Below are positions 16,363 to 27,442 of a stretch of DNA of 27,442 nt, piece after piece; position 1 is the stretch's first letter; each line of letters starts with the position of its first letter. The notes below the pieces were generated by a model that was given only the letters and a program-made list of their open reading frames with translations, did not search any database and was not told where the DNA came from. Position numbers and translations under genes: made by a program. The stretch covers positions 1 to 27,442 of the forward strand of contig JASHSH010000365.1 of assembly GCA_030040955.1 (NCBI GenBank). Direction: 5' to 3'. This DNA is from Rhodospirillales bacterium (lineage in GTDB: Bacteria; Pseudomonadota; Alphaproteobacteria; Rhodospirillales; Magnetospirillaceae).

Positions 16363-16400
16363 AGGATATGCGCGCTTGTTCGAATTGATCCGACGCGGTC

Positions 16401-16422
16401 TCGTGCAGTTGATCCTGCACGA
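16401..16422. repeat. perfect 8-bp inverted repeat
   Basis: TCGTGCAG-ttgatc-CTGCACGA, ending 16 nt before ATG 16439. Confidence 0.55.
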
Positions 16423-16438
16423 TCGTTCCAGCCCCGAA

Positions 16439-18262
16439 ATGAATTCGGCACGGGCCCAGACATCGGCCCAGCAGGGAAACTCGACCGTAGCGCACGCGCA
16501 TCTGGCCGAGGCGCGCTCGCGGATGACGCAGGGCCGGTGGGACGAGGCCGAAGCGTTGCTCCGGAAATCCGTCGATGCGGATGATTCCCTCGTCGATGCC
16601 TATGGCGCCTTGGCGGAGATTTTCTGGCGCCAGGGCCGCTTCCTCGAATCCACAGCGATGAGCCACCAAGTGGCAAGCCGCGACCCGCGCGACGCAATGG
16701 CGCGGTTCCACCTCGGCGATGGACTCATGCAGCTGGGCGATTTCGATGAAGCCGTCGCCGCTTTTCGGGCCTCGATCGCGCTGAAGGCGGACTATGCGCC
16801 GGCGCATGTTCGGCTCTCGGTCGCGCTCGAGCGGCTGGGACGATACGAGGATTCGGCTGCGGCGGCCTCGCGCGCCGTGGCGATCGACGCGAGTTCGCCG
16901 GCGGCGCGCTTTCGGCTTGCCTTTCTGCGCCGCTCCGTCTGCGATTGGCGGGAGTTCGCGTCCGACGCGGTATTCATCCGCCGGTCGATTCGAGACGGTG
17001 CGGGATTCTTCCCCGGCGCGATTTCGCTCATGCCGGCGACCGCGGCGGAGCAGCTGCGCAACGCGCGCGACTTCGTCGCCGGTCTCGATCTGCCTCCGCC
17101 CATGCCGATCGTCTCGCGCGAGTCCAGAAGCGACGTGCGCATCCGGCTGGGCTATTTGTCGAGCGGATTGCGCGAGCATCCGACGGGGCGTCTGATCGCC
17201 GAGCTGATCGAGCTGCATGACCGAAAACGATTCGAAGTGCTGGGATACTCGCTCGCCAGGGACGACGGCAGCCGCCTCGGCGCGAGGATCGCGCAGGCAT
17301 TCGACCGGATCGCGTATATTCAGGACGGCTCCCAGGCGGAGTTCGCCGCGCGCATCCGCGACGACGAAGTCGATATCCTGGTGGACCTCAACGGTCACAC
17401 GGACGGCAACGGAATTCGCATCCTGGCGCGGCGGCCCGCTCCGATTCAGGTGAACTATCTCGGCTATCCGGGGACGATGGGCGCGGCGTTCATCGACTAT
17501 CTGATCGCCGACAAAATCGTCGTTCCCGAATCCGATCAGGACTCCTACTCCGAAAAGCTGGCCTATTTGCCGCACAGCTACCAGGTGAACGATCGCCGGC
17601 GGCCCATCGGCGAACCTACGCCCGCGCGCGCCGAACTGGGTCTGCCGGAGCACGGTCTGGTGTTCGCCTGCCTCAACGACCCGCGCAAGATCGTGCCCGA
17701 ATTCTTCGATCTCTGGGTGCGTCTGCTCGCAGCGGTGCCGGACTCGGTGCTGTGGCTGATGGGAGGGCGCGATGCGGCCGCGCGGAATCTTCGCCGCGAG
17801 GCCGAGCGTCGCGGCGTCGCGGAATCGCGCCTGGTGTGGGCGCCGAGGCTGCCGGCGCCCGAACATCTGGCGCGTGTCCGCCGGGCCGATTTGTTCCTCG
17901 ACACGCTGCCTTGCGGCGGACATACCACCTTGAGCGACACGCTGTGGGCCGGCGTCCCCGCGGTAACCTGCCTGGGCGACGCCTTTCCCGGGCGCGTCGG
18001 CGCGAGCCTGCTGCGCGCCGTGGGCCTGCCCGAGCTGGTGACCGAATCGCTGGCGGAATACGAGGCGCTTGCGCTCCGCCTCGCCCGCGATCCGTCTCGC
18101 CTCGCCGAACTGCGCCGCAGATTGCATACAAACCGGGAGATGGCGCCGCTGTTCGATACGCCCCGTTTCGTCAGACATATCGAGGCGGCATACGAGGAAA
18201 TGTGGAGAAACTGGCGCGCACAGCGGCCGCCTCGCCCAATAATCGTAAGAGAAACTCCTTAA
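16439..18262 (+). CDS. GT41 O-GlcNAc transferase-like glycosyltransferase with about 4 TPRs
   Basis: Probable start ATG 16439 (MNSARAQ). Motifs LGYLSSGLREHPT, DILVDLNGHT, PAPIQVNYLGYPGTMG, LNDPRKI and DLFLDTLPCGGHTTLSDTLWAG. Confidence 0.9.
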   Translation: MNSARAQTSAQQGNSTVAHAHLAEARSRMTQGRWDEAEALLRKSVDADDSLVDAYGALAEIFWRQGRFLESTAMSHQVASRDPRDAMARFHLGDGLMQLGDFDEAVAAFRASIALKADYAPAHVRLSVALERLGRYEDSAAAASRAVAIDASSPAARFRLAFLRRSVCDWREFASDAVFIRRSIRDGAGFFPGAISLMPATAAEQLRNARDFVAGLDLPPPMPIVSRESRSDVRIRLGYLSSGLREHPTGRLIAELIELHDRKRFEVLGYSLARDDGSRLGARIAQAFDRIAYIQDGSQAEFAARIRDDEVDILVDLNGHTDGNGIRILARRPAPIQVNYLGYPGTMGAAFIDYLIADKIVVPESDQDSYSEKLAYLPHSYQVNDRRRPIGEPTPARAELGLPEHGLVFACLNDPRKIVPEFFDLWVRLLAAVPDSVLWLMGGRDAAARNLRREAERRGVAESRLVWAPRLPAPEHLARVRRADLFLDTLPCGGHTTLSDTLWAGVPAVTCLGDAFPGRVGASLLRAVGLPELVTESLAEYEALALRLARDPSRLAELRRRLHTNREMAPLFDTPRFVRHIEAAYEEMWRNWRAQRPPRPIIVRETP

Positions 18263-18377: not shown

Positions 18378-20990
18378 ATGTCGAGCTTGCGTAAGATTCA
18401 CGTCACCACCGGCGTGAGCTGGGTCGAGGCGCCCGAGGTCGGGTTGTACGTCCTGTGCGGCTGCCCGGCCGACTCGGTCAAGCATCTGATGCGGCGCGGG
18501 CTGATCGTCGAAACCGAAGCCGACGGGGTCTTCTTCGAGACCGGACCGAACGCGATCCTGCTTTCCGACGTCATGGTCCAGAACGGCGCGTTCTGCAATC
18601 TGGCCGAGTTCCCGGTCCTTCAGATGCTGTATCGCCAGGGGATGATCATCCCCGGCCATCCCAACAACAAGGGCGCCAAGCCCCTGCTCATCGGCCGGCG
18701 CGAGCAGGTGGACGCGCAGATGCGTTACATCCACCGCGGCAATTACGGCCTGCTCAGCCGCGACGAGATGGTCGCCGCCGGCACCACCCCCGAGACCGCC
18801 GACGAGTTGATGGCGATGAAGCTCGCCTTCGCCTTCGGCGCCATCCTCCATCCGGCCGACCTGATCGATTCGCTGACCGTCGCCGACTCGCCGGTGACGC
18901 TGCCCGGCGGCGTGATCCTGCGCCGTCTCGGGCTGAACCGATATCTGTTCGAACTGGGCGCGGATTCGATCGAGGTCGATCTCAACCTTCCACCCGGCAT
19001 CACGTACGAACCTCCCTACACGCTCGGCAATCACCGCATCGACCGGTCCTACTTCTCCGTGATCCATGTCGGCGAGGGCGACGGCTGGGACCCGAACCGG
19101 CCCTGCATGAGCAGCATCGTCGTGTTCCAGGGCAAGATCTACCTGATCGACGCCGGCCCGAACCTGCAATACAGCCTGACCTCGCTCGGCATCGGCATCA
19201 ACGAGGTCGAGGGCGTCTTCCACACCCACTGCCACGACGATCATTTCGCCGGTCTGACCACGCTGATGCGCGCGGACAAGCGCATCAAGTATTTCGCCAC
19301 GCCCCTGGTCTGCGCTTCCGTGAAGAAGAAGCTCGCGGCGCTGCTCACCATCGAGGAATCGGACTTCGCCGATTACTTCGACATCCACGACCTGGCGTTC
19401 GACGAGTGGAACAACATCGACGGCCTCGAGGTGAAGCCCATCCTTTCGCCGCACCCGGTCGAGACCAGCATCCTGATGTTCCGGGCGCTGTGGGAGAACG
19501 GCTATCGCACCTACGCGCATTGGGCCGACATCGCCTCGCGCGAGACGCTCTCGCGCATGGTCACCTCCGAGGGAGGCCCCGGCATCTCGCGCGATTTCTA
19601 CGAGCGGGTGATCGCCGACTATTCGGCGCCGGCCGACATCAAGAAGATCGACGCCGGCGGCGGCATGATCCACGGCCAGGCGGAGGATTTCCGCGACGAC
19701 GCCTCGCGCAAGATCGTGCTCGCCCATGTCGCCCGTTCGCTGACCGTCGAGGAGAAGCGCATCGGTTCCGGCGCGCCCTTCGCCACCGCCGAGGTGCTCA
19801 TCTCCGGCAGCCAGGACTTCATCTGGAGCAGCGCGTTCCAGCTGCTCGCCGCCTACTTCCCCAAGACCCCGCGTCACGATCTGCGGCTGCTCATCAATTG
19901 CCCGATCGCGGTGTGCAATCCCGAGACCATCCTTCTCCATCCCGACCATCTGGTCGACCAGATCCACCTCCTGGTCACCGGCGCGGTCGAGATGATCGAG
20001 GATACCTCGCATGTCAGCGGTGTGCTGTCGGCCGGCGCGCTGATCGGCGAGATGGCGGCGCTGGAGGGCGCGCCCGCCGGCAAGACCTATCGCGCGATCA
20101 GCTTCGTCCAGTCGTTGATGATTCCGGGCGATCTGTACCGCGAATTCGTGCGCCGCAACGGCTTGCTCGACGAGGTGATGACGCATGCGGAGCGGCGCAA
20201 CTTCCTGCGCGCGACCTGGCTGTGCGCCGAGGCACTGACCGAGACGACGCTGCACAACCTGGCCAAGGGGCTCACGGCGCGGGAGTATCCGGCCGGGGTC
20301 GACGTGCGCACCGGCGGATCGCTCGCCTTCCTGCGCTCGGGCACCGCCGAGCTGATGAGCGGCGGGCATTCGATCGAATCGCTCGGGCCCGGCGCGTTCT
20401 GGGGCGAGGAGTCCGCCCTGTTCGCCACCCCGCCCTTGTTCCGCGCCCGCGGCCGCGAGCCGATCCAGGTGTACCTGTCCGCGCCCGACGTGGCCCGTCA
20501 CGTGCCGGTGATGCGCTGGAAGCTGCTGGAATGCCACAAGCGCCGAGTCAACGCCGATATCGGCGAAGGCGGGCGGGCCAACGGCCGCGGCCTGCGCTGG
20601 CGCGAGGAGTACGGCGTGAACGTCCAGCGCTTCGACCATCATCACCGCAATCTCATCATGCGGGCCAATGCCGCGGTCGAGGCGATCGCCTGCGGCGACG
20701 GCCGCGCCGATGTCGATCACGCCTTCGAGGACCTGTTCGGCTATGCGAGCTTCCATTTCGGCGAGGAGGAGCGGCTGCTGGAGGCGACCGGCGCATCCTG
20801 GCTCGGCGAGCATCGGGTCAAGCATGCGAGGCTGCTCGAGCAGATATCGGAGCTCGAGCGCCGCTACCGGGGCCGAGGCCCGGAATCCGCCGGCGAATTG
20901 GCCGCCCAGCTCGCCGAATGGGTGGTCGGCCATATCGTGGCGGACGACCGGCGCACCGCCTCCTTCCTGAACGCCAAGGGCATCTACTGA
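18378..20990 (+). CDS. MBL-fold metallohydrolase + two cNMP-binding-like domains + C-terminal bacteriohemerythrin
   Basis: MBL motifs YLIDAG, HTHCHDDH (19221-19244), SPHPVE, ADI and AH. CNB-like segments GALIGEMAAL and GAFWGEESAL. The hemerythrin (about 20592-20990) has DHHH, HFGEEE, HRVKH and HIVADD. Confidence 0.88.
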   Translation: MSSLRKIHVTTGVSWVEAPEVGLYVLCGCPADSVKHLMRRGLIVETEADGVFFETGPNAILLSDVMVQNGAFCNLAEFPVLQMLYRQGMIIPGHPNNKGAKPLLIGRREQVDAQMRYIHRGNYGLLSRDEMVAAGTTPETADELMAMKLAFAFGAILHPADLIDSLTVADSPVTLPGGVILRRLGLNRYLFELGADSIEVDLNLPPGITYEPPYTLGNHRIDRSYFSVIHVGEGDGWDPNRPCMSSIVVFQGKIYLIDAGPNLQYSLTSLGIGINEVEGVFHTHCHDDHFAGLTTLMRADKRIKYFATPLVCASVKKKLAALLTIEESDFADYFDIHDLAFDEWNNIDGLEVKPILSPHPVETSILMFRALWENGYRTYAHWADIASRETLSRMVTSEGGPGISRDFYERVIADYSAPADIKKIDAGGGMIHGQAEDFRDDASRKIVLAHVARSLTVEEKRIGSGAPFATAEVLISGSQDFIWSSAFQLLAAYFPKTPRHDLRLLINCPIAVCNPETILLHPDHLVDQIHLLVTGAVEMIEDTSHVSGVLSAGALIGEMAALEGAPAGKTYRAISFVQSLMIPGDLYREFVRRNGLLDEVMTHAERRNFLRATWLCAEALTETTLHNLAKGLTAREYPAGVDVRTGGSLAFLRSGTAELMSGGHSIESLGPGAFWGEESALFATPPLFRARGREPIQVYLSAPDVARHVPVMRWKLLECHKRRVNADIGEGGRANGRGLRWREEYGVNVQRFDHHHRNLIMRANAAVEAIACGDGRADVDHAFEDLFGYASFHFGEEERLLEATGASWLGEHRVKHARLLEQISELERRYRGRGPESAGELAAQLAEWVVGHIVADDRRTASFLNAKGIY

Positions 20991-21033: not shown

Positions 21034-21063
21034 CTTGGCGGCTCTGTCCGCCTGACCTATTAT
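21034..21063 (+). promoter_or_regulatory. sigma70-type promoter candidate for the second MBL-CNB paralog
   Basis: CTTGGC-N17-CTATTAT (equivalently TTGGCG-N17-TATTAT) in the 143-nt gap between the paralogs. Confidence 0.5.
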
Positions 21064-21133: not shown

Positions 21134-23368
21134 ATGGCGCGGCTGAGAAAGTTTCATGTCACGACCGGGGTTAGCCTGGTCGAAGCGCCCGAAGTCGGTC
21201 TCTCCATCCTCTGCGGCTGTCCCGGCGACGTGGTGAAACACCTCATGCGCCGCGGCCTGATCGTGGAGGCCGAGGCCAGCGGGGTGCGCTTCGAGACCGG
21301 GCCGAACGCGATTCTGCTGTCCGACGTGACGTTGCAGAACGGCATGTTCTGCAACCTGGCCGAATTCCCCGTTCTCCAGATGCTCTACCTCCAGGGCATG
21401 CTGCTGCCCGGGCATCCGAACAACAAGGGCCAGAAGCCGCTGCTCATCGGCCTGCGCGAGCAGGTCGAGACGCAGATGCGCTACATCCACCGCGGCAATT
21501 ACGGACTGACCAGCGTCGAGGAGATGATGGCCGCTGGCGCCGATCGCGCGCAGGCGGAAGAGCTGATGCGCATGAAGCTGCGCTTCGCCTTCGGCAGGAT
21601 TTTGCCGCCCGAGCAGCTGCTCGATACCCTCCATCTCGGCCGCGATCCGGTGACCGTGCGCGGCGGGCTCGAATTTCGCCGCATCGCGCTCAATCTGTTC
21701 CAGATCTCGCTCGGCGACGAGTCCGTCATCGTCGATCTCAACCTGCCCGACGAGCAGCACTATCCAGCGCCCTACACGCTCGGCAAATACAGCATCGACC
21801 GCGAATATTTCGCCGTGGTCCACAGCGGCGACGGCGACGGCTGGGACCCCAACCGGCCCTGCATGAGCAGCATGGTGATGTTCCAGGGCCGCGTGTACCT
21901 GATCGACGCGGGACCGAATCTTCACCACAACCTCACCGCGCTCGGCATCAGCGTGAACGAGCTGGACGGGTTGTTCCACACCCACTGCCACGACGACCAT
22001 TTCGCCGGGTTGACCGCCCTGCTGCACGCCGACCGGCGCATCAAGTATTACGCCACGCCCCTGGTGCGCGCCTCGGTCACCAAGAAGTTCGCCGCGTTGA
22101 TGGCGACCGACGACGAGGTGTTCTCGCACTGCTTCGAGCCGCACGATCTCGAGTCCGACCAATGGAACAACATCGACGGCCTCGAGGTGAAGCCGATCCT
22201 CTCGCCGCATCCGGTGGAGACCAGCTGCTACCTGTTCCGCGCGCCCTGGGAGGGCAGCTACCGCAGCTATGCGCATCTCGCCGACCTGGTCTCGCTCAAG
22301 GTGCTGGCCGGGATGCAGGCGACCAACGAGAAGCCGGGCATCGCCAAGAGCTTCTACGACAAGGTCGCCTCCGACTATTCGGTGCCGACCAATCTGAAGA
22401 AGATCGATATCGGCGGCGGGCTGATCCACGGGGTGGTCGAGGATTTCGTCGGCGACCAGTCCGACAAGATCGTGCTGGCGCACACTTCGCGCGAGCTGAC
22501 CGTGGCCGAGAAGGAGATCGGCTCCGGCGCGCCGTTCGGCTCGGTCGACGTCATCATTCCGGGCGACAATCATTTTGCCTGGCGCAATGCGTTCGAGGGG
22601 TTGCGCACCTGCTTCCCGTTCGCGCCGCATCACGACGTGCGCATGCTGCTCAACAGCCCCCTCGTCATCTACAATCCCGAGACCATCCTGATGCGCCAGG
22701 GTCAGGCGGTGACCCACATGTTCCTGGTGGTCACCGGCATGGTCGACATGTTCCGCGAGGGCTCGCCGGTGAACGGGCAGCTTTCCGCCGGCGCGCTGAT
22801 CGGCGACGCCGCCGCGATCCAAAGCGGCCAAGCCAACAAGACCTACCGCGCGGCGAGCTTCGTGCAGGCGCTGAAGATCTCCAGCGAGCTGTTCCGCCAG
22901 TTCGCCGAGCGCAACGGCCTGGTCGAGGAGGTGATGGCGATCGACGCAAGGCGCGACTTCCTCCGCTCGACCTGGGTGTGCTCCGAGGCGCTCACCCAGT
23001 CCAACCTGAACCGGGTCGCGCGCACCATGTCGGAGCGCAGCTACGCGGCCGAGGAGACGGTGGACACCGGCGGCCGGCTCGCCTTCCTCAAGGAGGGCAA
23101 GCTCGAGCTCTCCATCGGCAAGCGGGTGGTCGACACGCTGCTGCCCGGCGACTTCTTCGGCGAGGAGGACACGGTCCCCGAGTTCAACGGCTCGGCGCGC
23201 ATCCGCGCGCTCGGCCCCTCGCATGTCTACCTGACCGACCCCGACGTGGTGGCGCACGTTCCGGTGATGCGCTGGCGCCTGCTGGAGGGCTACCGCCGCC
23301 GCGCCCGCACCGGCGAGATCAAGGGCGTGAAGGCGCCCGCGACGTCCCCCTCGCCCGCCGCCGGCTAG
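21134..23368 (+). CDS. MBL-fold metallohydrolase + two cNMP-binding-like domains (paralog of 18378-20990 without hemerythrin)
   Basis: Colinear with the upstream gene, with HTHCHDDH at 21977-22000, GALIGDAAAI and GDFFGEED. It ends soon after the second CNB domain. Confidence 0.88.
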   Translation: MARLRKFHVTTGVSLVEAPEVGLSILCGCPGDVVKHLMRRGLIVEAEASGVRFETGPNAILLSDVTLQNGMFCNLAEFPVLQMLYLQGMLLPGHPNNKGQKPLLIGLREQVETQMRYIHRGNYGLTSVEEMMAAGADRAQAEELMRMKLRFAFGRILPPEQLLDTLHLGRDPVTVRGGLEFRRIALNLFQISLGDESVIVDLNLPDEQHYPAPYTLGKYSIDREYFAVVHSGDGDGWDPNRPCMSSMVMFQGRVYLIDAGPNLHHNLTALGISVNELDGLFHTHCHDDHFAGLTALLHADRRIKYYATPLVRASVTKKFAALMATDDEVFSHCFEPHDLESDQWNNIDGLEVKPILSPHPVETSCYLFRAPWEGSYRSYAHLADLVSLKVLAGMQATNEKPGIAKSFYDKVASDYSVPTNLKKIDIGGGLIHGVVEDFVGDQSDKIVLAHTSRELTVAEKEIGSGAPFGSVDVIIPGDNHFAWRNAFEGLRTCFPFAPHHDVRMLLNSPLVIYNPETILMRQGQAVTHMFLVVTGMVDMFREGSPVNGQLSAGALIGDAAAIQSGQANKTYRAASFVQALKISSELFRQFAERNGLVEEVMAIDARRDFLRSTWVCSEALTQSNLNRVARTMSERSYAAEETVDTGGRLAFLKEGKLELSIGKRVVDTLLPGDFFGEEDTVPEFNGSARIRALGPSHVYLTDPDVVAHVPVMRWRLLEGYRRRARTGEIKGVKAPATSPSPAAG

Positions 23369-24024
23369 ACCAGCACGACCAGCAGCCGCTTCGGCCCGTG
23401 GACGCCGTAGGCGAGCGTCTGCTCGATGTCGGCCGTCTTCGACGGGCCCGAGATCAGCAGCAGATTGGTGGGCATCGCGCGCGACCATTCCTGCTCGCGC
23501 ATCGCCTGCCACATCGTGTCGTAGATGCGCGCCACTTCGAGCAGGGCGATGTGCACCGGCGGCACGAGCGAGAGCGTGCGCGGCTCGTCGGCCGAGGGAA
23601 TGAGGATCAGGCTGCCGGTGGCGGCGATGCCGCCGAGCGTCGCGGTCAGCCCGGCGCCGTTCTCCGCGAACAGCGCGGCCTTCCACTCCGCCAACGGCCG
23701 GTCGTAGGGGATCAGACGCGGACCCGCGCCCAATCCCGGCCAGCGCTCGGCGATGCGCCGGCCCGGTTCGGTCCGGGGCGCCAGGATCAGCGAGGGCAGC
23801 GATTGCGCAACCATCCAGGCATGAATCGCCGGCACCCAGTCCGCTCCGCGCGCGTCCAGGAATTCGGTATGCACCGCCTCCATGGCGCGACGCAGGCGGG
23901 CGAGCCGTTCCTCCCCGCCCATGCCGATTCCGGCGACCGGGGCGAAATCCTCGTCCGGCGGCGTGACGGTCGCGGGCGCCCCGGCTCGAAGCCGGGTGAG
24001 AATGGCGGAGCGCGCGTCAGGCAT
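23365..24024 (-). CDS. lutC: lactate utilization protein C (LUD domain, YkgG-like)
   Basis: Start ATG 24024 (MPDARSAIL). Motifs IAATGSLIL, PRTLSLVPPVHIAL and LLISGPSKTADIEQTLAYGVHGPKRL. It overlaps the lutB stop. Confidence 0.92.
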   Translation of the reverse strand: MPDARSAILTRLRAGAPATVTPPDEDFAPVAGIGMGGEERLARLRRAMEAVHTEFLDARGADWVPAIHAWMVAQSLPSLILAPRTEPGRRIAERWPGLGAGPRLIPYDRPLAEWKAALFAENGAGLTATLGGIAATGSLILIPSADEPRTLSLVPPVHIALLEVARIYDTMWQAMREQEWSRAMPTNLLLISGPSKTADIEQTLAYGVHGPKRLLVVLV

Positions 24025-25438
24025 CGGGCAACCCCGCGCGGCGCGCCAGCTCGTGCAGGCTCCGCCGGGCGAATCGGGGCCGCGCGCGCACCCGCATCCA
24101 ATCGCGCAATCCGGGGAGCCCTCGCGGCAGCAGCCCGCCCAGACGGGTGAGCGTCCAGACCATCGGGCGATACAGAACCGGCGTGGCGTAGATCGCGGCC
24201 CAGGCCGACCAGACGAGCGACTCGAACGCGCTTCGCCGCGCTCCCGCGCCCTGCACCGCGCGGCTGTCCGCCCGCGTGCCCTCGCGGCGCAGCCGCACCA
24301 AGATGTCGCCGATGGGGATCGCCACCGGGCAGATTTCGGTGCAGGCCTCGCACAACGCGGAGGCATGCGGCAGATCGCCCACCTTCTCCAGTCCCAGCAT
24401 CTGCGGCATCAGGATCTTGCCGATCGGTCCCGGATAGGTGCCGGGATAGGCGTGGCCGCCCACCCGCGTATAGACGGGGCAATGGTTCATGCAGGCCCCG
24501 CAGCGGATGCAGCGCAGCACGTCGCGCAGCTCGGCATCGGCGTAGACGCGGGTGCGCCCGTTGTCGAGGATCACGAGGTGCATCTCGTCGGGCCCGTCCT
24601 TCTCTCCCGCGCGCCGCGGACCGGTGATCATGTTGACGTAGCCGGTGATCGGCTGGCCGGTGGCGGAGCGGGTGAGCAGCGCGAGCAACGCGGGCACCTG
24701 GTCGAGCCGCTCGATCACCTTTTCGATGCCCATCAGCGCGATATGGACCGGCGGAACCGTGGTGCACAGCCGCCCGTTGCCCTCGTTCTCGACCAGCACC
24801 AGCGTGCCGGTTTCGGCGACGGCGAAATTCACCCCGCTGATGCCGGCATCCGCCCGCTCGAACTTCTCGCGCAGCACGGCGCGCGCCAGCGCCGTCAGCT
24901 CGTCCACCTCCTCGGAATAGCGCGCCCCCTTGATCCGCTCGAAGAACAGCTTGGCGATCTGGCGCCGGTTCTTGTGGATCGCCGGCATGATGATGTGCGA
25001 GGGCGTCTCGTGGTCGAGCTGGATGATGTATTCGCCGAGATCCGCCTCCAGCACCTCGATGCCTTCGCCCTCGAGGAAGTGGTTGAGATGCATCTCCTCG
25101 GAGACCATCGACTTGCCCTTGACCACCAGGCGCGCGCCGCGCCGGCGCAGGATATCGCCGACGATGGCATTGCCCTGCTCCACCGTCTCCGCCCAATGGA
25201 CGCGCACGCCACGCTCGACCAGTTTGGCCTCGAGGCGCTCGAGCAGCTCGGGAAGCCGGGCCAGCGCGCGAAGGCGGGCGGCGGCGCCGAGGGCGCGCAG
25301 ACCGGCCCAGTCGCCCGCCCGGGCGAACAGATCGGCGCGGCGGCTCATCAGCCCGTCCATGGCGCGGCGGAAGTTGGCCCGCAGTTCGGGATCGGCCAGG
25401 GCCTTTCGCGCCGAGACGCGGAATTCAGCCGTCGCCAC
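24017..25438 (-). CDS. lutB: lactate utilization protein B (Fe-S subunit, YkgF-like)
   Basis: Probable GTG 25438 start. Motifs VKGKSMVSEE, EADLGEYIIQL, PSHIIMPAIHK, NEGNGRL, CIRCGACMNHCP and LCEACTEICP. Confidence 0.93.
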   Translation of the reverse strand: MATAEFRVSARKALADPELRANFRRAMDGLMSRRADLFARAGDWAGLRALGAAARLRALARLPELLERLEAKLVERGVRVHWAETVEQGNAIVGDILRRRGARLVVKGKSMVSEEMHLNHFLEGEGIEVLEADLGEYIIQLDHETPSHIIMPAIHKNRRQIAKLFFERIKGARYSEEVDELTALARAVLREKFERADAGISGVNFAVAETGTLVLVENEGNGRLCTTVPPVHIALMGIEKVIERLDQVPALLALLTRSATGQPITGYVNMITGPRRAGEKDGPDEMHLVILDNGRTRVYADAELRDVLRCIRCGACMNHCPVYTRVGGHAYPGTYPGPIGKILMPQMLGLEKVGDLPHASALCEACTEICPVAIPIGDILVRLRREGTRADSRAVQGAGARRSAFESLVWSAWAAIYATPVLYRPMVWTLTRLGGLLPRGLPGLRDWMRVRARPRFARRSLHELARRAGLPDA

Positions 25439-26171
25439 GCGTCCGCTCCCACAGGAATTCGGCGATGTGCATGGGGCGCACCCGTTCGCCACGCTTGGCG
25501 AGGACGCCGCCGATATTGAGCAGGCAGCCGCAGTCGCCGGAGATCAGCGCCTCCGCCCCGGTGGCGACCACCGCATCGGCCTTGTCGGTCGCCATCGCGC
25601 TCGAAATCTCGGGCTGACGCACCGAGAACACGCCGCCGAATCCGCAGCATTCGCGCTCGCGCGCGACCTCGACCAGGGTCACATTGGCGAGTTCGCGCAA
25701 CAGAAGCTTGGGCTGGTCGCCGACGCCCATCAGGCGCATCGCGTGGCACGAGCCATGCCACGCGACGGTGATCGGCGGACCGAGATCGCGCGGCTTCAGC
25801 CCGATCACGTCGACCAGGAACTGGGTGAGCTCGATGACCCGGGCCGCGACCCGATCCGCCGCCGCCGCATCTTGCGTGCCGGCGAACAGCGCGTGGTAGT
25901 GCGCGCGCATCATGCCGGCGCAGGAGCCGGAGGGGACGACGATCGGAAGGTCGCGCGGGAACAGGCCGAGCTGCGCCGTCGCGACCCGCCTCGCCTCTTC
26001 GGTCCGGCCCGCGCTGTAGGCCGGCTGCCCACAGCAGCTCTGGCCGCGGGGATAGATGACTTCGACGCCCTGCGCCCGCAGTAGCCGGATGCCGGCCATG
26101 CCGGCCTCGGGAAAGAACAGATCCGCCAGGCAGGTGCCGAAATAGTAGACCGCCGCTGGGCGCTCCGGCAT
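25425..26171 (-). CDS. lutA: lactate utilization protein A (CCG-domain Fe-S protein, YkgE-like)
   Basis: YFGTCLAD, CCGQPAY, PSGSCAGM, WHGSCH, CCGFGG and DCGCLLNI. There is a strong GGAGG upstream. Confidence 0.93.
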   Translation of the reverse strand: MPERPAAVYYFGTCLADLFFPEAGMAGIRLLRAQGVEVIYPRGQSCCGQPAYSAGRTEEARRVATAQLGLFPRDLPIVVPSGSCAGMMRAHYHALFAGTQDAAAADRVAARVIELTQFLVDVIGLKPRDLGPPITVAWHGSCHAMRLMGVGDQPKLLLRELANVTLVEVARERECCGFGGVFSVRQPEISSAMATDKADAVVATGAEALISGDCGCLLNIGGVLAKRGERVRPMHIAEFLWERTRGDG

Positions 26172-26246
26172 TCGCCTCCCTCCGATCCCTGGCCGGTGTT
26201 TGAATTATCGCGCATTATGATGGGGACCGCGCCGACGCAAAAGTCC

Positions 26247-27442
26247 ATGGCACCGCCGCCCTACGACCACATCGCCCAACGGCTCGCCGACCATCTGCCG
26301 CCCGAGCGCATCGTGACCGATCCGCTGCGCCTGATGACGTGGGGGACCGATGCGAGCCTCTACCGGCTGGTGCCCAAGATCGTCGTCGTGGTGGAGAGCG
26401 AAGAGGATGTCCGCCTGGTGCTGGAGACCTGCCGGGCGTTCGGCGTTCCGCTCACCTTCCGCGCGGCGGGAACGAGCCTGTCCGGCCAGGCGCTGAGCGA
26501 CTCCGTCCTCGCCGTGCTCGGCGACAAATGGAACTGGGCCGCGGTGGAGGCGGGCGGCGACCGGCTGCGGGTGCGCCCCGGCATGATCGGCGCCGAGGCC
26601 AATCGCCGGCTCGCGCCCTATGGCCGCAAGATCGGCCCCGACCCGGCCTCGATCGACGCCTGCAAGATCGGCGGCATCGTGTCGAACAATTCGAGCGGCA
26701 TGTGCTGCGGCGTGGCCCAAAACACCTACCACACGATGGAAGCGCTGCGCTTCATGCTGACCGACGGCACGGTGCTCGACACCGGCGACGAGACCAGCCG
26801 CGCGGTGTTCCGCCAGAGCCATTCGGGGCTCCTGAACGAGATCGACGCGCTCGCCCGCGACGTGCGCGCCGACGACGAGTTCGCCGCCCGCATCCGGCAC
26901 AAGTTCCGCATCAAATGCACCACCGGCTACAGCATCAACGCGCTGGTCGACTACGCCGATCCGATCGACATCCTCGCCCATCTGATGGTCGGCTCCGAGG
27001 GTACGCTCGGCTTCGTCTCCGAAGTGGTCTACCGCACCGTGCCCGAGCATGCGCACAAGGCCACCGCGCTGCTGTTCTTCGCCGACATCGTCGCCGCCAG
27101 CCGGGCGGTGATGGCGCTGGAGAAGGAGCCGGTGGCGGCGGTCGAGTTGTTCGACCGGGCGAGCCTGCGCTCGGTCGAGGGCAAGCCCGGCGTGCCCGAG
27201 CGGGTGCGCGACCTGCCCGACGAGGCGGCGGCGCTGCTGATCGAGACGCGCGCGGAATCGCCGGCGGCGCTCGGCGCCAACCGGGAATCGGTGGCGCGCG
27301 CGCTTGCGTCCTGCGAGATGCTGGACGCGCTCGCTTTCACGACCGATGCGGCCGAGGCCGCGCTGCTCTGGAACGTGCGCAAGGGGTTGATCCCATCGGC
27401 GGGCGGCGCGCGCCCCAACGGCACCTCGATGATCATCGAGGA
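26247..27442 (+). CDS. dld: FAD-binding/Fe-S oxidoreductase, Dld-II-type D-lactate dehydrogenase, partial (runs off the right edge)
   Basis: Absent from the ORF track. It reads MAPPPYDHIAQRL...WGTDASLYRLVPK...FRAAGTSLSGQA...GPDPASIDACKIGGIVSNNSSGMCCG...KCTTGYSINALVD...GSEGTLGF. In-frame ATGs also occur at 26217 and 26220, and it is divergent from lutABC. Confidence 0.85.
   Translation, partial: MAPPPYDHIAQRLADHLPPERIVTDPLRLMTWGTDASLYRLVPKIVVVVESEEDVRLVLETCRAFGVPLTFRAAGTSLSGQALSDSVLAVLGDKWNWAAVEAGGDRLRVRPGMIGAEANRRLAPYGRKIGPDPASIDACKIGGIVSNNSSGMCCGVAQNTYHTMEALRFMLTDGTVLDTGDETSRAVFRQSHSGLLNEIDALARDVRADDEFAARIRHKFRIKCTTGYSINALVDYADPIDILAHLMVGSEGTLGFVSEVVYRTVPEHAHKATALLFFADIVAASRAVMALEKEPVAAVELFDRASLRSVEGKPGVPERVRDLPDEAAALLIETRAESPAALGANRESVARALASCEMLDALAFTTDAAEAALLWNVRKGLIPSAGGARPNGTSMIIE

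What the first reader, a model, noticed from the sequence alone, without database searches (positions are those of the whole stretch)
18378..20990. MBL hydrolase + 2 CNB + hemerythrin: candidate O2-gated cyclic-nucleotide phosphodiesterase resembling Dictyostelium GbpA/GbpB
Seen: a complete binuclear MBL site (HCHDDH plus downstream His, Asp and His), two CNB-like domains, and a hemerythrin with all seven iron ligands (H; HxxxE; HxxxH; HxxxxD). Established: Dictyostelium GbpA/PdeD and GbpB/PdeE are cNMP-stimulated phosphodiesterases built from an MBL domain followed by two CNB domains (catalytic motif recalled as HCHADH), and bacterial hemerythrin domains regulate fused signalling enzymes in response to O2. 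Similar domain strings exist as uncharacterised annotations in microaerophiles, but I know of no functional study. Inference: a bacterial member of that PDE lineage that couples O2 to second-messenger turnover.
Basis: partly seen in the sequence, partly recalled or inferred. Interest (0 to 1): 0.82.

Follow-up and report, generated by a model that had tools for sequence, protein, structure and literature searches.

The report
Hemerythrin-tagged twin-lobed metallo-phosphodiesterase
This intact bacterial gene encodes a probable breaker of cyclic-nucleotide signals, built like two slime-mould enzymes of known function but carrying an added iron-based oxygen/redox sensor; it belongs to a large bacterial family for which I found no functional study.

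Summary
Window 18378-20990 (+) is one intact 870-aa gene. It has a complete binuclear MBL site, two CNB-type domains and a bacteriohemerythrin with all seven iron ligands.

- Residues 1-216, which match no Pfam family, fold as a second, degenerate MBL domain. With the catalytic lobe they pack like long-form RNase Z.
- Both CNB domains lack the phosphate-binding Arg.

The AlphaFold model is confident (pLDDT 91.7, pTM 0.90). Its two best Swiss-Prot matches are Dictyostelium GbpB and GbpA (E about 1e-34). They align over N-lobe, MBL and both CNBs; every other match covers the CNBs only. The catalytic lobe's nearest solved fold is the cNMP phosphodiesterase Apyc1 (Z 24.0). Its motif fits the 'atypical class-II PDE' signature.

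Relatives swap in REC, GAF, CHASE2 or hemerythrin domains, and no neighbouring gene is conserved. That is the behaviour of a self-contained signalling output enzyme.

Best reading (0.55): an O2/redox-regulated cyclic-nucleotide phosphodiesterase. Substrate, direction of regulation and CNB ligand are untested.

This scan has met the same family before on other DNA (e1-4369754, e1-938090, e1-2372368). My independent tests agree with those follow-ups. Verdict: new variant of a known kind.

The parts
18378..20990 (+). Whole gene, 870 aa plus stop (P0001)
   Evidence: Open frame with GC3 0.90. Homologues of 867-873 aa share the start. AF2 model: mean pLDDT 91.7, pTM 0.90.
18378..19025 (+). N-lobe, residues 1-216: degenerate MBL-fold domain with no HxHxDH motif. 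C27, P57, E77 and Q87 are invariant.
   Evidence: No Pfam hit at E<=10. hhalign against the catalytic lobe gives probability 0.2%. Modelled alone (pLDDT 93.6), all top 50 solved matches are MBL folds: 8gyg Z 11.1, Apyc1 Z 11.0, ZipD Z 10.8. Conservation.
19041..19805 (+). Catalytic MBL lobe, residues 222-476
   Evidence: Pfam Lactamase_B and Lactamase_B_2. VIA-align: Apyc1 7u2r Z 24.0, rmsd 2.5, 220 of 244 residues; AMP-bound 3py5 Z 22.6; PhnP Z 21.8; ZipD Z 21.4; yeast PDE1 Z 19.5.
19221..19244 (+). Metal motif H282-T-H-C-H-D-D-H289
   Evidence: Read from the translation. T/S283 is kept in 100% of 64 relatives, H284 in 63, H286, D287 and D288 in 64, H289 in 63. It fits the signature [T/S]HxHxDH of atypical class-II PDEs (PMC9293780).
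19827..20168 (+). CNB-like domain 1, residues 484-597. Gly557-Glu558 are kept; the Arg position is Ala567.
   Evidence: Pfam cNMP_binding 515-594. In the HMMER alignment to PKG I (3shr) the RTA Arg falls on Ala. Only 2 of 64 relatives have Arg there.
20169..20576 (+). CNB-like domain 2 with a long C-helix (710-731), residues 598-733. Gly676-Glu677 are kept; the Arg position is Pro686.
   Evidence: Second Pfam stretch. Alignment to PKG I. Arg in 7 of 64 relatives. PKG II CNB-B 5bv6 Z 15.7. Helices.
20583..20987 (+). Bacteriohemerythrin four-helix bundle, residues 736-870. Ligands: H756, H793, E797, H812, H816, H852, D857.
   Evidence: TIGR02481 E 3.9e-25. DcrH-Hr 2avk: E 1e-09 and Z 18.8, rmsd 1.9, 132 of 133 residues. 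Ligand conservation. The linker at 731-735 is the only stretch with pLDDT below 50.
21134..23368 (+). Tandem paralogue (744 aa): same N-lobe, MBL and two CNBs, but no hemerythrin
   Evidence: 60% identity over 734 aa. Pfam. The tree places it inside an Hr-bearing clade. The same gene pair occurs in a 70%-identical relative.

Best explanation
The gene encodes a self-contained signalling enzyme that most likely hydrolyses a cyclic mononucleotide messenger (3',5'-cAMP and/or cGMP).

How it is built:
- The catalytic unit has two MBL lobes. The N-lobe is degenerate and has no metal site. It packs against an active binuclear lobe the way the two halves of long-form RNase Z do. I infer that it shapes or covers the substrate site.
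- Two CNB-like domains follow, as in Dictyostelium GbpA/GbpB. They lack the phosphate-binding Arg, so they more likely act as a conformational relay, or bind some other ligand, than give cNMP feedback.
- The C-terminal diiron hemerythrin hangs from the C-helix of CNB2 by a short flexible linker. [quoted passage not shown] This would tie messenger turnover to O2/redox conditions.

Shown: the anatomy, the conserved residues, and the fold relationships.
Inferred: the substrate, the direction of regulation, and the roles of the N-lobe and the CNBs.
For: - Whole-core match to enzymes of known function. GbpB and GbpA are the two best Swiss-Prot matches (E 2.9e-34 and 9.3e-34, TM 0.60), aligned from residue 1-5 to 718-743. 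All other hits (E about 1e-13) cover the CNBs only. GbpA/PdeD is a cGMP-stimulated cGMP PDE and GbpB/PdeE a cAMP-stimulated cAMP PDE, with motif HCHADHDS (PMC11988041; PMC3188802). Here the motif is HCHDDH.
- The catalytic lobe's nearest solved fold is the cNMP phosphodiesterase Apyc1 (Z 24.0). The top nine solved folds are mostly enzymes that act on phosphoesters.
- The motif fits [T/S]HxHxDH of atypical class-II cAMP PDEs such as Rv1339. All metal ligands are kept in 63-64 of 64 relatives.
- The core takes on N-terminal REC, GAF, CHASE2 or SBP domains, or a C-terminal hemerythrin with one or two CNBs. No neighbouring gene is conserved (best 8 of 80 loci).
- The host genome has at least 12 class III cyclase domain matches and about 14 other loci that match the CNB domain. 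It has no classical class II PDE.
- 50 of 50 family-bearing genomes carry a class III cyclase, against 118 of 151 in a sample of the phylum.
- The hemerythrin is complete and DcrH-like. [quoted passage not shown]
Against: - No biochemical data exist for any bacterial member.
- Identity to GbpA/B in the structural alignment is only 12-14%. I could not obtain their sequences for a phylogeny.
- Both CNBs lack the canonical Arg, so the defining cNMP activation of GbpA/B may be absent.
- By sequence, the best NCBIfam MBL hits are partial RNase Z matches. Both lobes superpose on RNase Z-long, so an RNA or oligonucleotide substrate is not excluded.
- Co-occurrence with cyclases is weak evidence. Cyclases are common (78% background), and related genomes are not independent observations.
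- The linker to the hemerythrin is flexible, so the coupling route is unknown.
Confidence: 0.55

Rival explanations
1. Same sensor-regulated two-lobed MBL hydrolase, but the substrate is a different phosphodiester: RNA or a tRNA-like 3' trailer (as for RNase Z), 2',3'-cNMP, a cyclic di- or oligonucleotide, or a linear dinucleotide.
For: - The N-lobe plus catalytic lobe superpose on human ELAC2 (Z 19.2, 377 residues) and yeast Trz1 (Z 17.3, 387 residues).
- All 30 close relatives give partial RNase Z model hits.
- Close structural neighbours include PhnP (a cyclic phosphate diesterase), an AMP-bound MBL and ZipD.
- The degenerate CNBs remove the argument from cNMP feedback.
Against: - The RNase Z model scores 41 bits against a cut-off of 293 and covers only model positions 14-73.
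- The catalytic lobe is compact (about 250 aa), like Apyc1.
- The only whole-architecture relatives with known activity are cNMP PDEs.
- Swappable REC, GAF, CHASE2 and Hr sensors are typical of messenger-metabolising enzymes, not of RNA-processing enzymes.
Confidence: 0.27
2. A cNMP phosphodiesterase that, like GbpA/B, is still allosterically activated by cAMP/cGMP at its CNB domains through a non-canonical phosphate contact. The hemerythrin would add a second input (logic gating).
For: - The Gly-Glu pair of the phosphate-binding cassette is kept in both CNBs.
- An Arg five residues downstream (R572) is kept in 42 of 64 relatives.
- The tandem aligns to the PKG and PKA-R tandems (PfPKG E 6.6e-38).
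- This reading overlaps the best explanation. It differs only in the role of the CNBs.
Against: - The canonical Arg is Ala567 and Pro686.
- Across the family the position holds Arg in only 2 of 64 (CNB1) and 7 of 64 (CNB2) sequences, and where Arg occurs it is not followed by the usual Ser/Thr-Ala.
- CNB homologues without this Arg commonly bind other ligands or none (general knowledge of CooA, FNR and KCNH channels; not tested here).
Confidence: 0.2
3. The MBL lobe is not a hydrolase but a redox or oxygen-using metalloenzyme (diiron oxygenase, flavodiiron-like, persulfide dioxygenase or PqqB-like). The hemerythrin would supply or sense O2 for that chemistry.
For: - MBL folds of CmlA, the flavodiiron protein FprA, PqqB and a persulfide dioxygenase appear among the structural matches.
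- A language-model look-up gave a weak lead to the CmlA N-terminal domain (score 0.80).
Against: - These matches score well below the phosphodiesterases: for the catalytic lobe, CmlA Z 15.4 against Apyc1 Z 24.0.
- The N-lobe aligns to CmlA's MBL part (chain 249-496), not to its N-terminal domain.
- The 0.80 atlas score is at chance level by the tool's own calibration.
- The motif is the hydrolase-type [T/S]HxHxDH with a bridging Asp.
Confidence: 0.04

Closest known systems
Dictyostelium discoideum GbpA/PdeD (Q8MLZ3) and GbpB/PdeE (Q8MM62), 'class IIb' cNMP-stimulated MBL phosphodiesterases
   Same: The core is collinear: N-terminal lobe, MBL lobe and two CNB domains (Foldseek E about 1e-34, TM 0.60, query 1-743). 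The metal motif is nearly identical: HCHADH in GbpA/B, HCHDDH here.
   Different: - Identity is only 12-14%.
- This protein adds a C-terminal hemerythrin.
- Both of its CNBs lack the phosphate-binding Arg.
- It is bacterial and belongs to a family with many swapped sensor domains.
- No activity data exist for it.
Atypical class-II PDEs and Apyc1 (Rv1339, YhfI, anti-Pycsar Apyc1)
   Same: It has the [T/S]HxHxDH signature and a Lactamase_B_2 match. The catalytic lobe is closest in structure to Apyc1 (Z 24.0, rmsd 2.5 A, 18% identity).
   Different: - Those enzymes are single-domain proteins of about 250 aa that form homodimers. Here a degenerate second lobe in the same chain appears to replace the partner subunit.
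- The Apyc1 Pfam model scores 18.4 bits against a cut-off of 50.
- Sensor domains are attached here.
Long-form RNase Z (human ELAC2, yeast Trz1)
   Same: A tandem of an inactive N-terminal MBL lobe and an active C-terminal MBL lobe in a similar mutual arrangement (Z 19.2 and 17.3 over 377-387 residues).
   Different: - It fails the RNase Z sequence model (41 bits against a cut-off of 293).
- The lobes are much smaller.
- CNB and hemerythrin domains are attached.
- There is no evidence of tRNA binding.
Bacterial hemerythrin sensors: DcrH, Bhr-DGC, Bhr-HD-GYP
   Same: A complete diiron ligand set and the DcrH-like four-helix bundle, fused to a signalling output in one polypeptide.
   Different: - The output here is an MBL/CNB core, not an MCP, GGDEF or HD-GYP domain.
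- The 2022 review calls Bhr-HD-GYP the only known hemerythrin sensor phosphodiesterase.
- The hemerythrin is C-terminal, as in DcrH.

Membership tests
GbpA/GbpB-type (class IIb) MBL cNMP phosphodiesterase | Collinear architecture: N-terminal region, MBL domain, two CNB domains | tested here: met
   Foldseek: GbpB aligns to query 5-743 and GbpA to query 1-718, at E 2.9e-34 and 9.3e-34, ranks 1-2 of Swiss-Prot.
GbpA/GbpB-type (class IIb) MBL cNMP phosphodiesterase | Metal motif of the HCHADH type | tested here: met
   H284-C-H-D-D-H289. The GbpA/B motif HCHADHDS is quoted in PMC3188802.
GbpA/GbpB-type (class IIb) MBL cNMP phosphodiesterase | Activation by cNMP binding to the CNB domains | tested here: inconclusive
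   Both CNBs lack the canonical phosphate-binding Arg (Ala567, Pro686). Binding was not measured, and the GbpA/B cassettes could not be inspected.
GbpA/GbpB-type (class IIb) MBL cNMP phosphodiesterase | Hydrolysis of 3',5'-cGMP or cAMP | not testable with these tools
   Needs an enzyme assay.
GbpA/GbpB-type (class IIb) MBL cNMP phosphodiesterase | Clustering with GbpA/B in a sequence phylogeny against RNase Z, Apyc1 and class II PDEs | not tested
   No tool gave me the GbpA/B sequences, and the primary papers are not held.
Atypical class-II PDE (Rv1339 group, PF12706) | Signature [T/S]HxHxDH with small or hydrophobic x | tested here: met
   T283-H-C-H-D-D-H. T/S is kept in 64 of 64 relatives and position 285 is C, A, S, I or V. 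The second x (287) is an invariant Asp, which is not small or hydrophobic. Definition: PMC9293780.
Atypical class-II PDE (Rv1339 group, PF12706) | Lactamase_B_2 match above the Pfam cut-off | tested here: met
   33.0 bits against a cut-off of 27.
Apyc1 (PF23023) | Family model above cut-off | tested here: not met
   18.4 bits against a cut-off of 50. It is nonetheless the closest solved fold (Z 24.0).
Ribonuclease Z (TIGR02651) | Full-length match above the curated cut-off | tested here: not met
   41.3 bits against 292.95; only model positions 14-73 are matched.
Classical class II PDE (PF02112, HxHLDH) | Pfam PDEase_II match | tested here: not met
   Not among the Pfam hits at E<=1. No match in the whole genome. 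Yeast PDE1 is only the ninth-ranked fold (Z 19.5).
Bacteriohemerythrin domain | Seven diiron ligands (H; HxxxE; HxxxH; HxxxxD) on a four-helix bundle | tested here: met
   H756, H793/E797, H812/H816, H852/D857. Helices 750-866. DcrH-Hr Z 18.8, rmsd 1.9. TIGR02481 scores 88.3 bits against a cut-off of 51.75.
Bacteriohemerythrin domain | Reversible O2 binding or redox-dependent control of the fused output | not testable with these tools
   Needs spectroscopy and assays in defined iron states.
Cyclic-nucleotide-binding domain (PF00027) | Domain model above cut-off, two copies | tested here: met
   48.9 bits against a cut-off of 27.5, two stretches. The PKG and PKA-R tandems align.
Cyclic-nucleotide-binding domain (PF00027) | Phosphate-binding cassette Arg (R-[ST]-A) | tested here: not met
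   Ala567 and Pro686 sit at the Arg position. The position is rarely Arg across the family.

The most novel reading that the evidence does not exclude
This family would be a widespread, unrecognised class of sensor-regulated bacterial phosphodiesterase for cAMP/cGMP or a related messenger, and the prokaryotic counterpart of the Dictyostelium GbpA/B enzymes.
- A pseudo-enzyme MBL lobe replaces the partner subunit.
- The CNB-like domains no longer read cNMP. Instead they relay signals from interchangeable sensors.
- In this gene the sensor is a hemerythrin, so cyclic-nucleotide levels would be set directly by O2/redox (or iron) status in microaerophilic and magnetotactic bacteria.
Probability: 0.4. 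Interest if true: 0.75.

Novelty: new variant of a known kind. Interest (0 to 1): 0.6.

Why it matters
Bacteria such as this one encode many class III cyclases and CNB proteins. Yet few regulated cNMP phosphodiesterases are known in bacteria.

If this family is what it appears to be, several things follow:
- It would supply the 'off' arm of bacterial cAMP/cGMP signalling in many phyla.
- It would add a second type of hemerythrin-controlled phosphodiesterase to the single one known (Bhr-HD-GYP).
- It would link O2/redox sensing to cyclic mononucleotides in gradient-dwelling organisms, including magnetotactic bacteria.
- It would give a prokaryotic context for the unusual Dictyostelium GbpA/B enzymes.

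It also offers a clean natural experiment. An Hr-bearing and an Hr-less paralogue lie side by side, and the same pairing recurs in a relative.

Tried and rejected
- **N-lobe as a sequence duplicate of the catalytic lobe.** hhalign gave probability 0.2%, so there is no sequence signal. The relationship rests on structure only.
- **Pfam on residues 1-235 at E<=10.** Nothing found.
- **ESM Atlas feature look-up for the N-lobe.** It gave only chance-level leads, including CmlA_N at 0.80. This lead is rejected: CmlA aligns through its own MBL part and at low Z.
- **Conserved operon partners.** I clustered all flanking ORFs of 80 loci. No neighbour occurs in more than 8 loci (ABC ATPase 8, REC-HD-GYP 6, MCP 3). 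ORF calling was crude.
- **Anti-phage defence.** P0001 has no PADLOC hit. The paralogue's CNB1 weakly resembles the CNB of PycTIR effectors, which is domain similarity only.
- **Eukaryotic relatives among distant library hits.** The cluster look-up returned no informative names.
- **Primary GbpA/B papers.** PMC133600, PMC133599 and PMC124474 are not held.
- **Literature on this architecture.** Three full-text searches returned nothing. The one Magnetospirillum transcriptome paper found does not concern this gene.
- **Hr labels on the tree.** My regular expression under-calls divergent hemerythrins. Only the local clade around the window's two genes is used.
- **Promoter for the second gene.** There is one sigma-70-like match in the intergenic region, against 0.6 expected by chance. 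This is not evidence.
- **Tool limits.** One NCBIfam call exceeded the size limit.
- **No complex prediction was run,** because I claim no protein-protein binding.
Full report
**The gene is real**

Window 18378-20990 (+) is a single open frame of 870 codons. Its GC3 is 0.90, the highest class in the window. The long ORF on the opposite strand translates to low-complexity Ala/Gly/Arg sequence. Close homologues are 867-873 aa long and share the N-terminus M-x-x-L-R-K, so the start codon is right.

**The reported features are present**

- Pfam finds Lactamase_B and Lactamase_B_2 (241-359), cNMP_binding twice, and Hemerythrin (749-857).
- NCBIfam finds the bacteriohemerythrin domain at E 3.9e-25.
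- The MBL site is complete: D258, T283-H284-C285-H286-D287-D288-H289, H359, D384 and H432. H381, K422, K423, D441 and H450 are also conserved. Each is kept in 63-64 of 64 diverse relatives.
- The seven hemerythrin ligands are H756, H793/E797, H812/H816 and H852/D857. They align with those of DcrH-Hr and are kept in 24-25 of 25 Hr-bearing relatives.

1. Residues 1-216 form a further domain that is more conserved than the rest. In the 64-sequence alignment, C27, P57, L61, E77, Q87, G106 and G124 are invariant; Y117 is invariant in the 62-sequence N-lobe alignment. The domain matches no Pfam family even at E<=10.
2. Both CNB domains lack the phosphate-binding Arg.
   - In the HMMER alignment with PKG I (3shr), the R of R-T-A falls on Ala567 in CNB1 and on Pro686 in CNB2. 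The Gly-Glu pair is kept in both.
   - Across 64 relatives the position is Arg in 2 (CNB1) and 7 (CNB2). Where Arg occurs it is not followed by the canonical Ser/Thr-Ala.
   - This agrees with another note by the first-stage reader on this window (e1-5332376).

**Structure**

With a 64-sequence alignment, AlphaFold2 gives a confident full-length model: mean pLDDT 91.7, pTM 0.90. Only residues 731-735 fall below 50. These lie in the linker between the long C-helix of CNB2 (710-731) and the hemerythrin bundle (helices 750-866).

*Whole model against Swiss-Prot (Foldseek).* GbpB/PdeE ranks first (E 2.9e-34; query 5-743 on hit 259-1089). GbpA/PdeD ranks second (E 9.3e-34; query 1-718 on hit 14-846; TM 0.60 both ways). 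Every later hit (E about 1e-13) is a PKA-R or PKG tandem CNB covering only residues 478-760. The match to GbpA/B is therefore collinear over four domains, including the unannotated N-terminal one, although identity is only 12-14%.

*N-lobe modelled alone (pLDDT 93.6).*
- All top 50 solved matches are MBL-fold proteins: arylsulfatase 8gyg (Z 11.1, 159 residues, 3.5 A), Apyc1 (Z 11.0), ZipD (Z 10.8), tRNase Z (Z 10.7) and ELAC2 (Z 10.0).
- In Swiss-Prot it hits Apyc1, RNase Z and Rv1339. It also hits residues 259-431 of GbpB, which give the highest TM of the list (0.51).
- It has no HxHxDH motif. C27 is its one invariant Cys, and H94 (57 of 64) is its only well-conserved His. It is therefore a degenerate, presumably non-catalytic MBL lobe.
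- Sequence profiles do not detect this relationship (hhalign probability 0.2%).

*Full model against representatives of the whole PDB.*

| Part of the model | Best solved matches |
|---|---|
| Catalytic lobe 225-474 | Apyc1 7u2r: Z 24.0, rmsd 2.5 A, 220 of 244 residues |
| | AMP-bound Brucella MBL 3py5: Z 22.6 |
| | ElaC homologue 1zkp: Z 22.1 |
| | PhnP-family diphosphatase 6b9v: Z 22.1 |
| | PhnP 3g1p: Z 21.8 |
| | ZipD 2cbn: Z 21.4 |
| | Yeast class II PDE1 4ojx: Z 19.5 |
| Both lobes 1-476 | Human ELAC2: Z 19.2, 377 residues |
| | Yeast Trz1: Z 17.3, 387 residues |
| Hemerythrin 736-870 | DcrH-Hr 2avk: Z 18.8, rmsd 1.9 A, 132 of 133 residues |

The superposition on ELAC2 and Trz1 indicates a pseudo-dimer like that of long-form RNase Z.

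**Family and context**

*Size and range.*
- An exhaustive HMMER search finds 262 clusters (at 50% identity) with E<=1e-30 and 990 with E<=1e-10.
- Named relatives come from Magnetospirillum, Paramagnetospirillum, Telmatospirillum, Phaeospirillum and Terasakiella. They are annotated only as 'bacteriohemerythrin' or 'cyclic nucleotide-binding protein'.
- Eighty genomic loci span Alpha-, Beta- and Gammaproteobacteria, Magnetococcales, Desulfobacterota, Planctomycetota, Spirochaetota, Bacteroidota, Nitrospirota, Latescibacterota, SAR324 and Campylobacterota.

*Domain swapping.*
- The two-lobe core occurs alone (about 480 aa).
- It occurs with N-terminal REC, GAF, CHASE2 or SBP_bac_3 domains.
- It occurs with a hemerythrin after one or two CNBs.
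- No flanking gene is conserved; the best candidate appears in 8 of 80 loci.
- This is how a self-contained signalling output module behaves.

*The host genome.* It is a 3.0-Mb assembly, 88% complete.
- It holds only the two tandem copies of this family.
- This is its only hemerythrin domain.
- It has at least 12 class III cyclase domain matches and about 14 other loci that match the CNB domain.
- It has no classical class II PDE.

*Co-occurrence with cyclases.* Fifty of 50 family-bearing genomes have a class III cyclase. The rate is 118 of 151 (69 of 98 genera) in a sample of the phylum. This is consistent with a cNMP role but weak, because cyclases are common and related genomes are not independent.

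**The tandem paralogue**

The gene at 21134-23368 is 60% identical over 734 residues and ends just after the CNB2 C-helix. The same Hr-plus/Hr-minus pair, in the same order, occurs in a 70%-identical relative. The Telmatospirillum siberiense copy stands alone.

In a maximum-likelihood tree of the core, three groups form one fully supported clade inside an Hr-bearing group: the window's Hr gene, its Hr-less neighbour, and a mixed Telmatospirillum group. The Hr-less forms are therefore best read as secondary losses. This depends on the root, and my Hr labels are unreliable for distant rows.

**Mechanism**

*Shown:*
- an intact binuclear MBL hydrolase site;
- a degenerate partner lobe;
- two Arg-less CNB folds;
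- an intact diiron hemerythrin on a flexible tether.

*From the literature:*
- GbpA/PdeD and GbpB/PdeE hydrolyse cGMP and cAMP, are stimulated through their CNBs, and carry the motif HCHADHDS (PMC11988041; PMC3188802).
- Rv1339-type 'atypical class-II PDEs' have the signature [T/S]HxHxDH and are related to RNase Z (PMC9293780).
[quoted passage not shown] Bhr-HD-GYP is described as the only known hemerythrin sensor phosphodiesterase (PMC9388753).

*Inferred:*
- The enzyme hydrolyses a 3',5'-cyclic mononucleotide.
- The N-lobe substitutes for the second subunit of dimeric relatives and helps form the substrate site.
- The CNB tandem relays conformational signals rather than reading cNMP.
- The oxidation/O2 state of the hemerythrin, acting through the CNB2 C-helix, switches activity. 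The direction of the switch cannot be predicted.

**Rivals**

- **Another phosphodiester substrate (0.27).** RNA/tRNA, 2',3'-cNMP or cyclic di/oligonucleotides remain possible, because of the RNase Z-long-like lobes and the partial RNase Z sequence hits. However, the RNase Z model scores 41 bits against a cut-off of 293, and sensor swapping points towards messenger metabolism.
- **Residual cNMP activation through a non-canonical contact (0.2).** This overlaps the main reading and differs only in the CNB role.
- **Redox or oxygenase chemistry in the MBL lobe (0.04).** This is unlikely given the fold ranking and the motif.

**Comparison and novelty**

It works like GbpA/B and shares their whole core. 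Membership in that lineage is supported by structure and motif, but has not been tested by phylogeny or assay. One defining property, cNMP activation, is doubtful here.

It is not a member of RNase Z, Apyc1 (PF23023, 18 bits against 50) or classical class II PDEs.

Three full-text searches found no paper on this architecture. The 2022 hemerythrin-sensor review does not mention it.

This scan has met the family before on other DNA (e1-4369754, e1-938090, e1-2372368 and first-stage notes). My structure-based tests independently reach the same reading.

I rate it a new variant of a known kind, interest 0.6. The enzyme family is plausible, widespread and unstudied, and there is a clear experimental path. 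But nothing here is biochemically shown, and the architecture is already visible in public annotation.

Noticed in passing
window 21134-23368 (+): A tandem paralogue (744 aa, 60% identical) has the same N-lobe, MBL and two CNBs but no hemerythrin. The pair recurs in a 70%-identical relative (L003). The tree suggests the hemerythrin was lost secondarily, at least three times in this clade.
   Followed up: partly
proteins P0123, P0131, P0155, P0133, P0129 (library hits): Relatives carry N-terminal REC, GAF, CHASE2 (membrane sensor) or periplasmic SBP_bac_3 domains in front of the same two-lobe MBL + CNB core.
   Followed up: partly
proteins P0154, P0156, P0162, P0169 (library hits): Variants of about 750-770 aa place the hemerythrin after a single detectable CNB or none. 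The MBL core and hemerythrin have therefore been joined in more than one architecture.
   Followed up: no
window 21035-21063 (+): The one sigma-70-like promoter match lies in the 143-bp gap between the paralogues. One match was found against 0.6 expected by chance, so it is not evidence for separate transcription.
   Followed up: partly
window 16376-18262 (+): The upstream gene encodes TPR repeats plus a GT41 (O-GlcNAc-transferase-like) glycosyltransferase (Pfam E 5.8e-86). It is the last gene of the glycosyltransferase-rich region noted elsewhere in this scan.
   Followed up: no
window 23365-26204 (-) and 26085-27440 (+): A LutC/LutB/LutA-like lactate-utilisation set (LUD, Fe-S and CCG domains; the listed ORF starts overlap and need trimming) lies next to an FAD-linked oxidase. 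A fused FAD-oxidase/Fe-S gene also follows the paralogue pair in the relative L003.
   Followed up: no
window 22667-22915 (paralogue CNB1): The paralogue's first CNB weakly matches the CNB region of Pycsar TIR effectors in PADLOC (E 3e-07 to 7e-06). I read this as shared domain type, not as a defence system.
   Followed up: partly
whole genome G000: The 88%-complete genome shows at least 12 class III cyclase domain matches and about 14 further loci that match the CNB domain. It has only this one hemerythrin domain and no classical class II PDE.
   Followed up: partly
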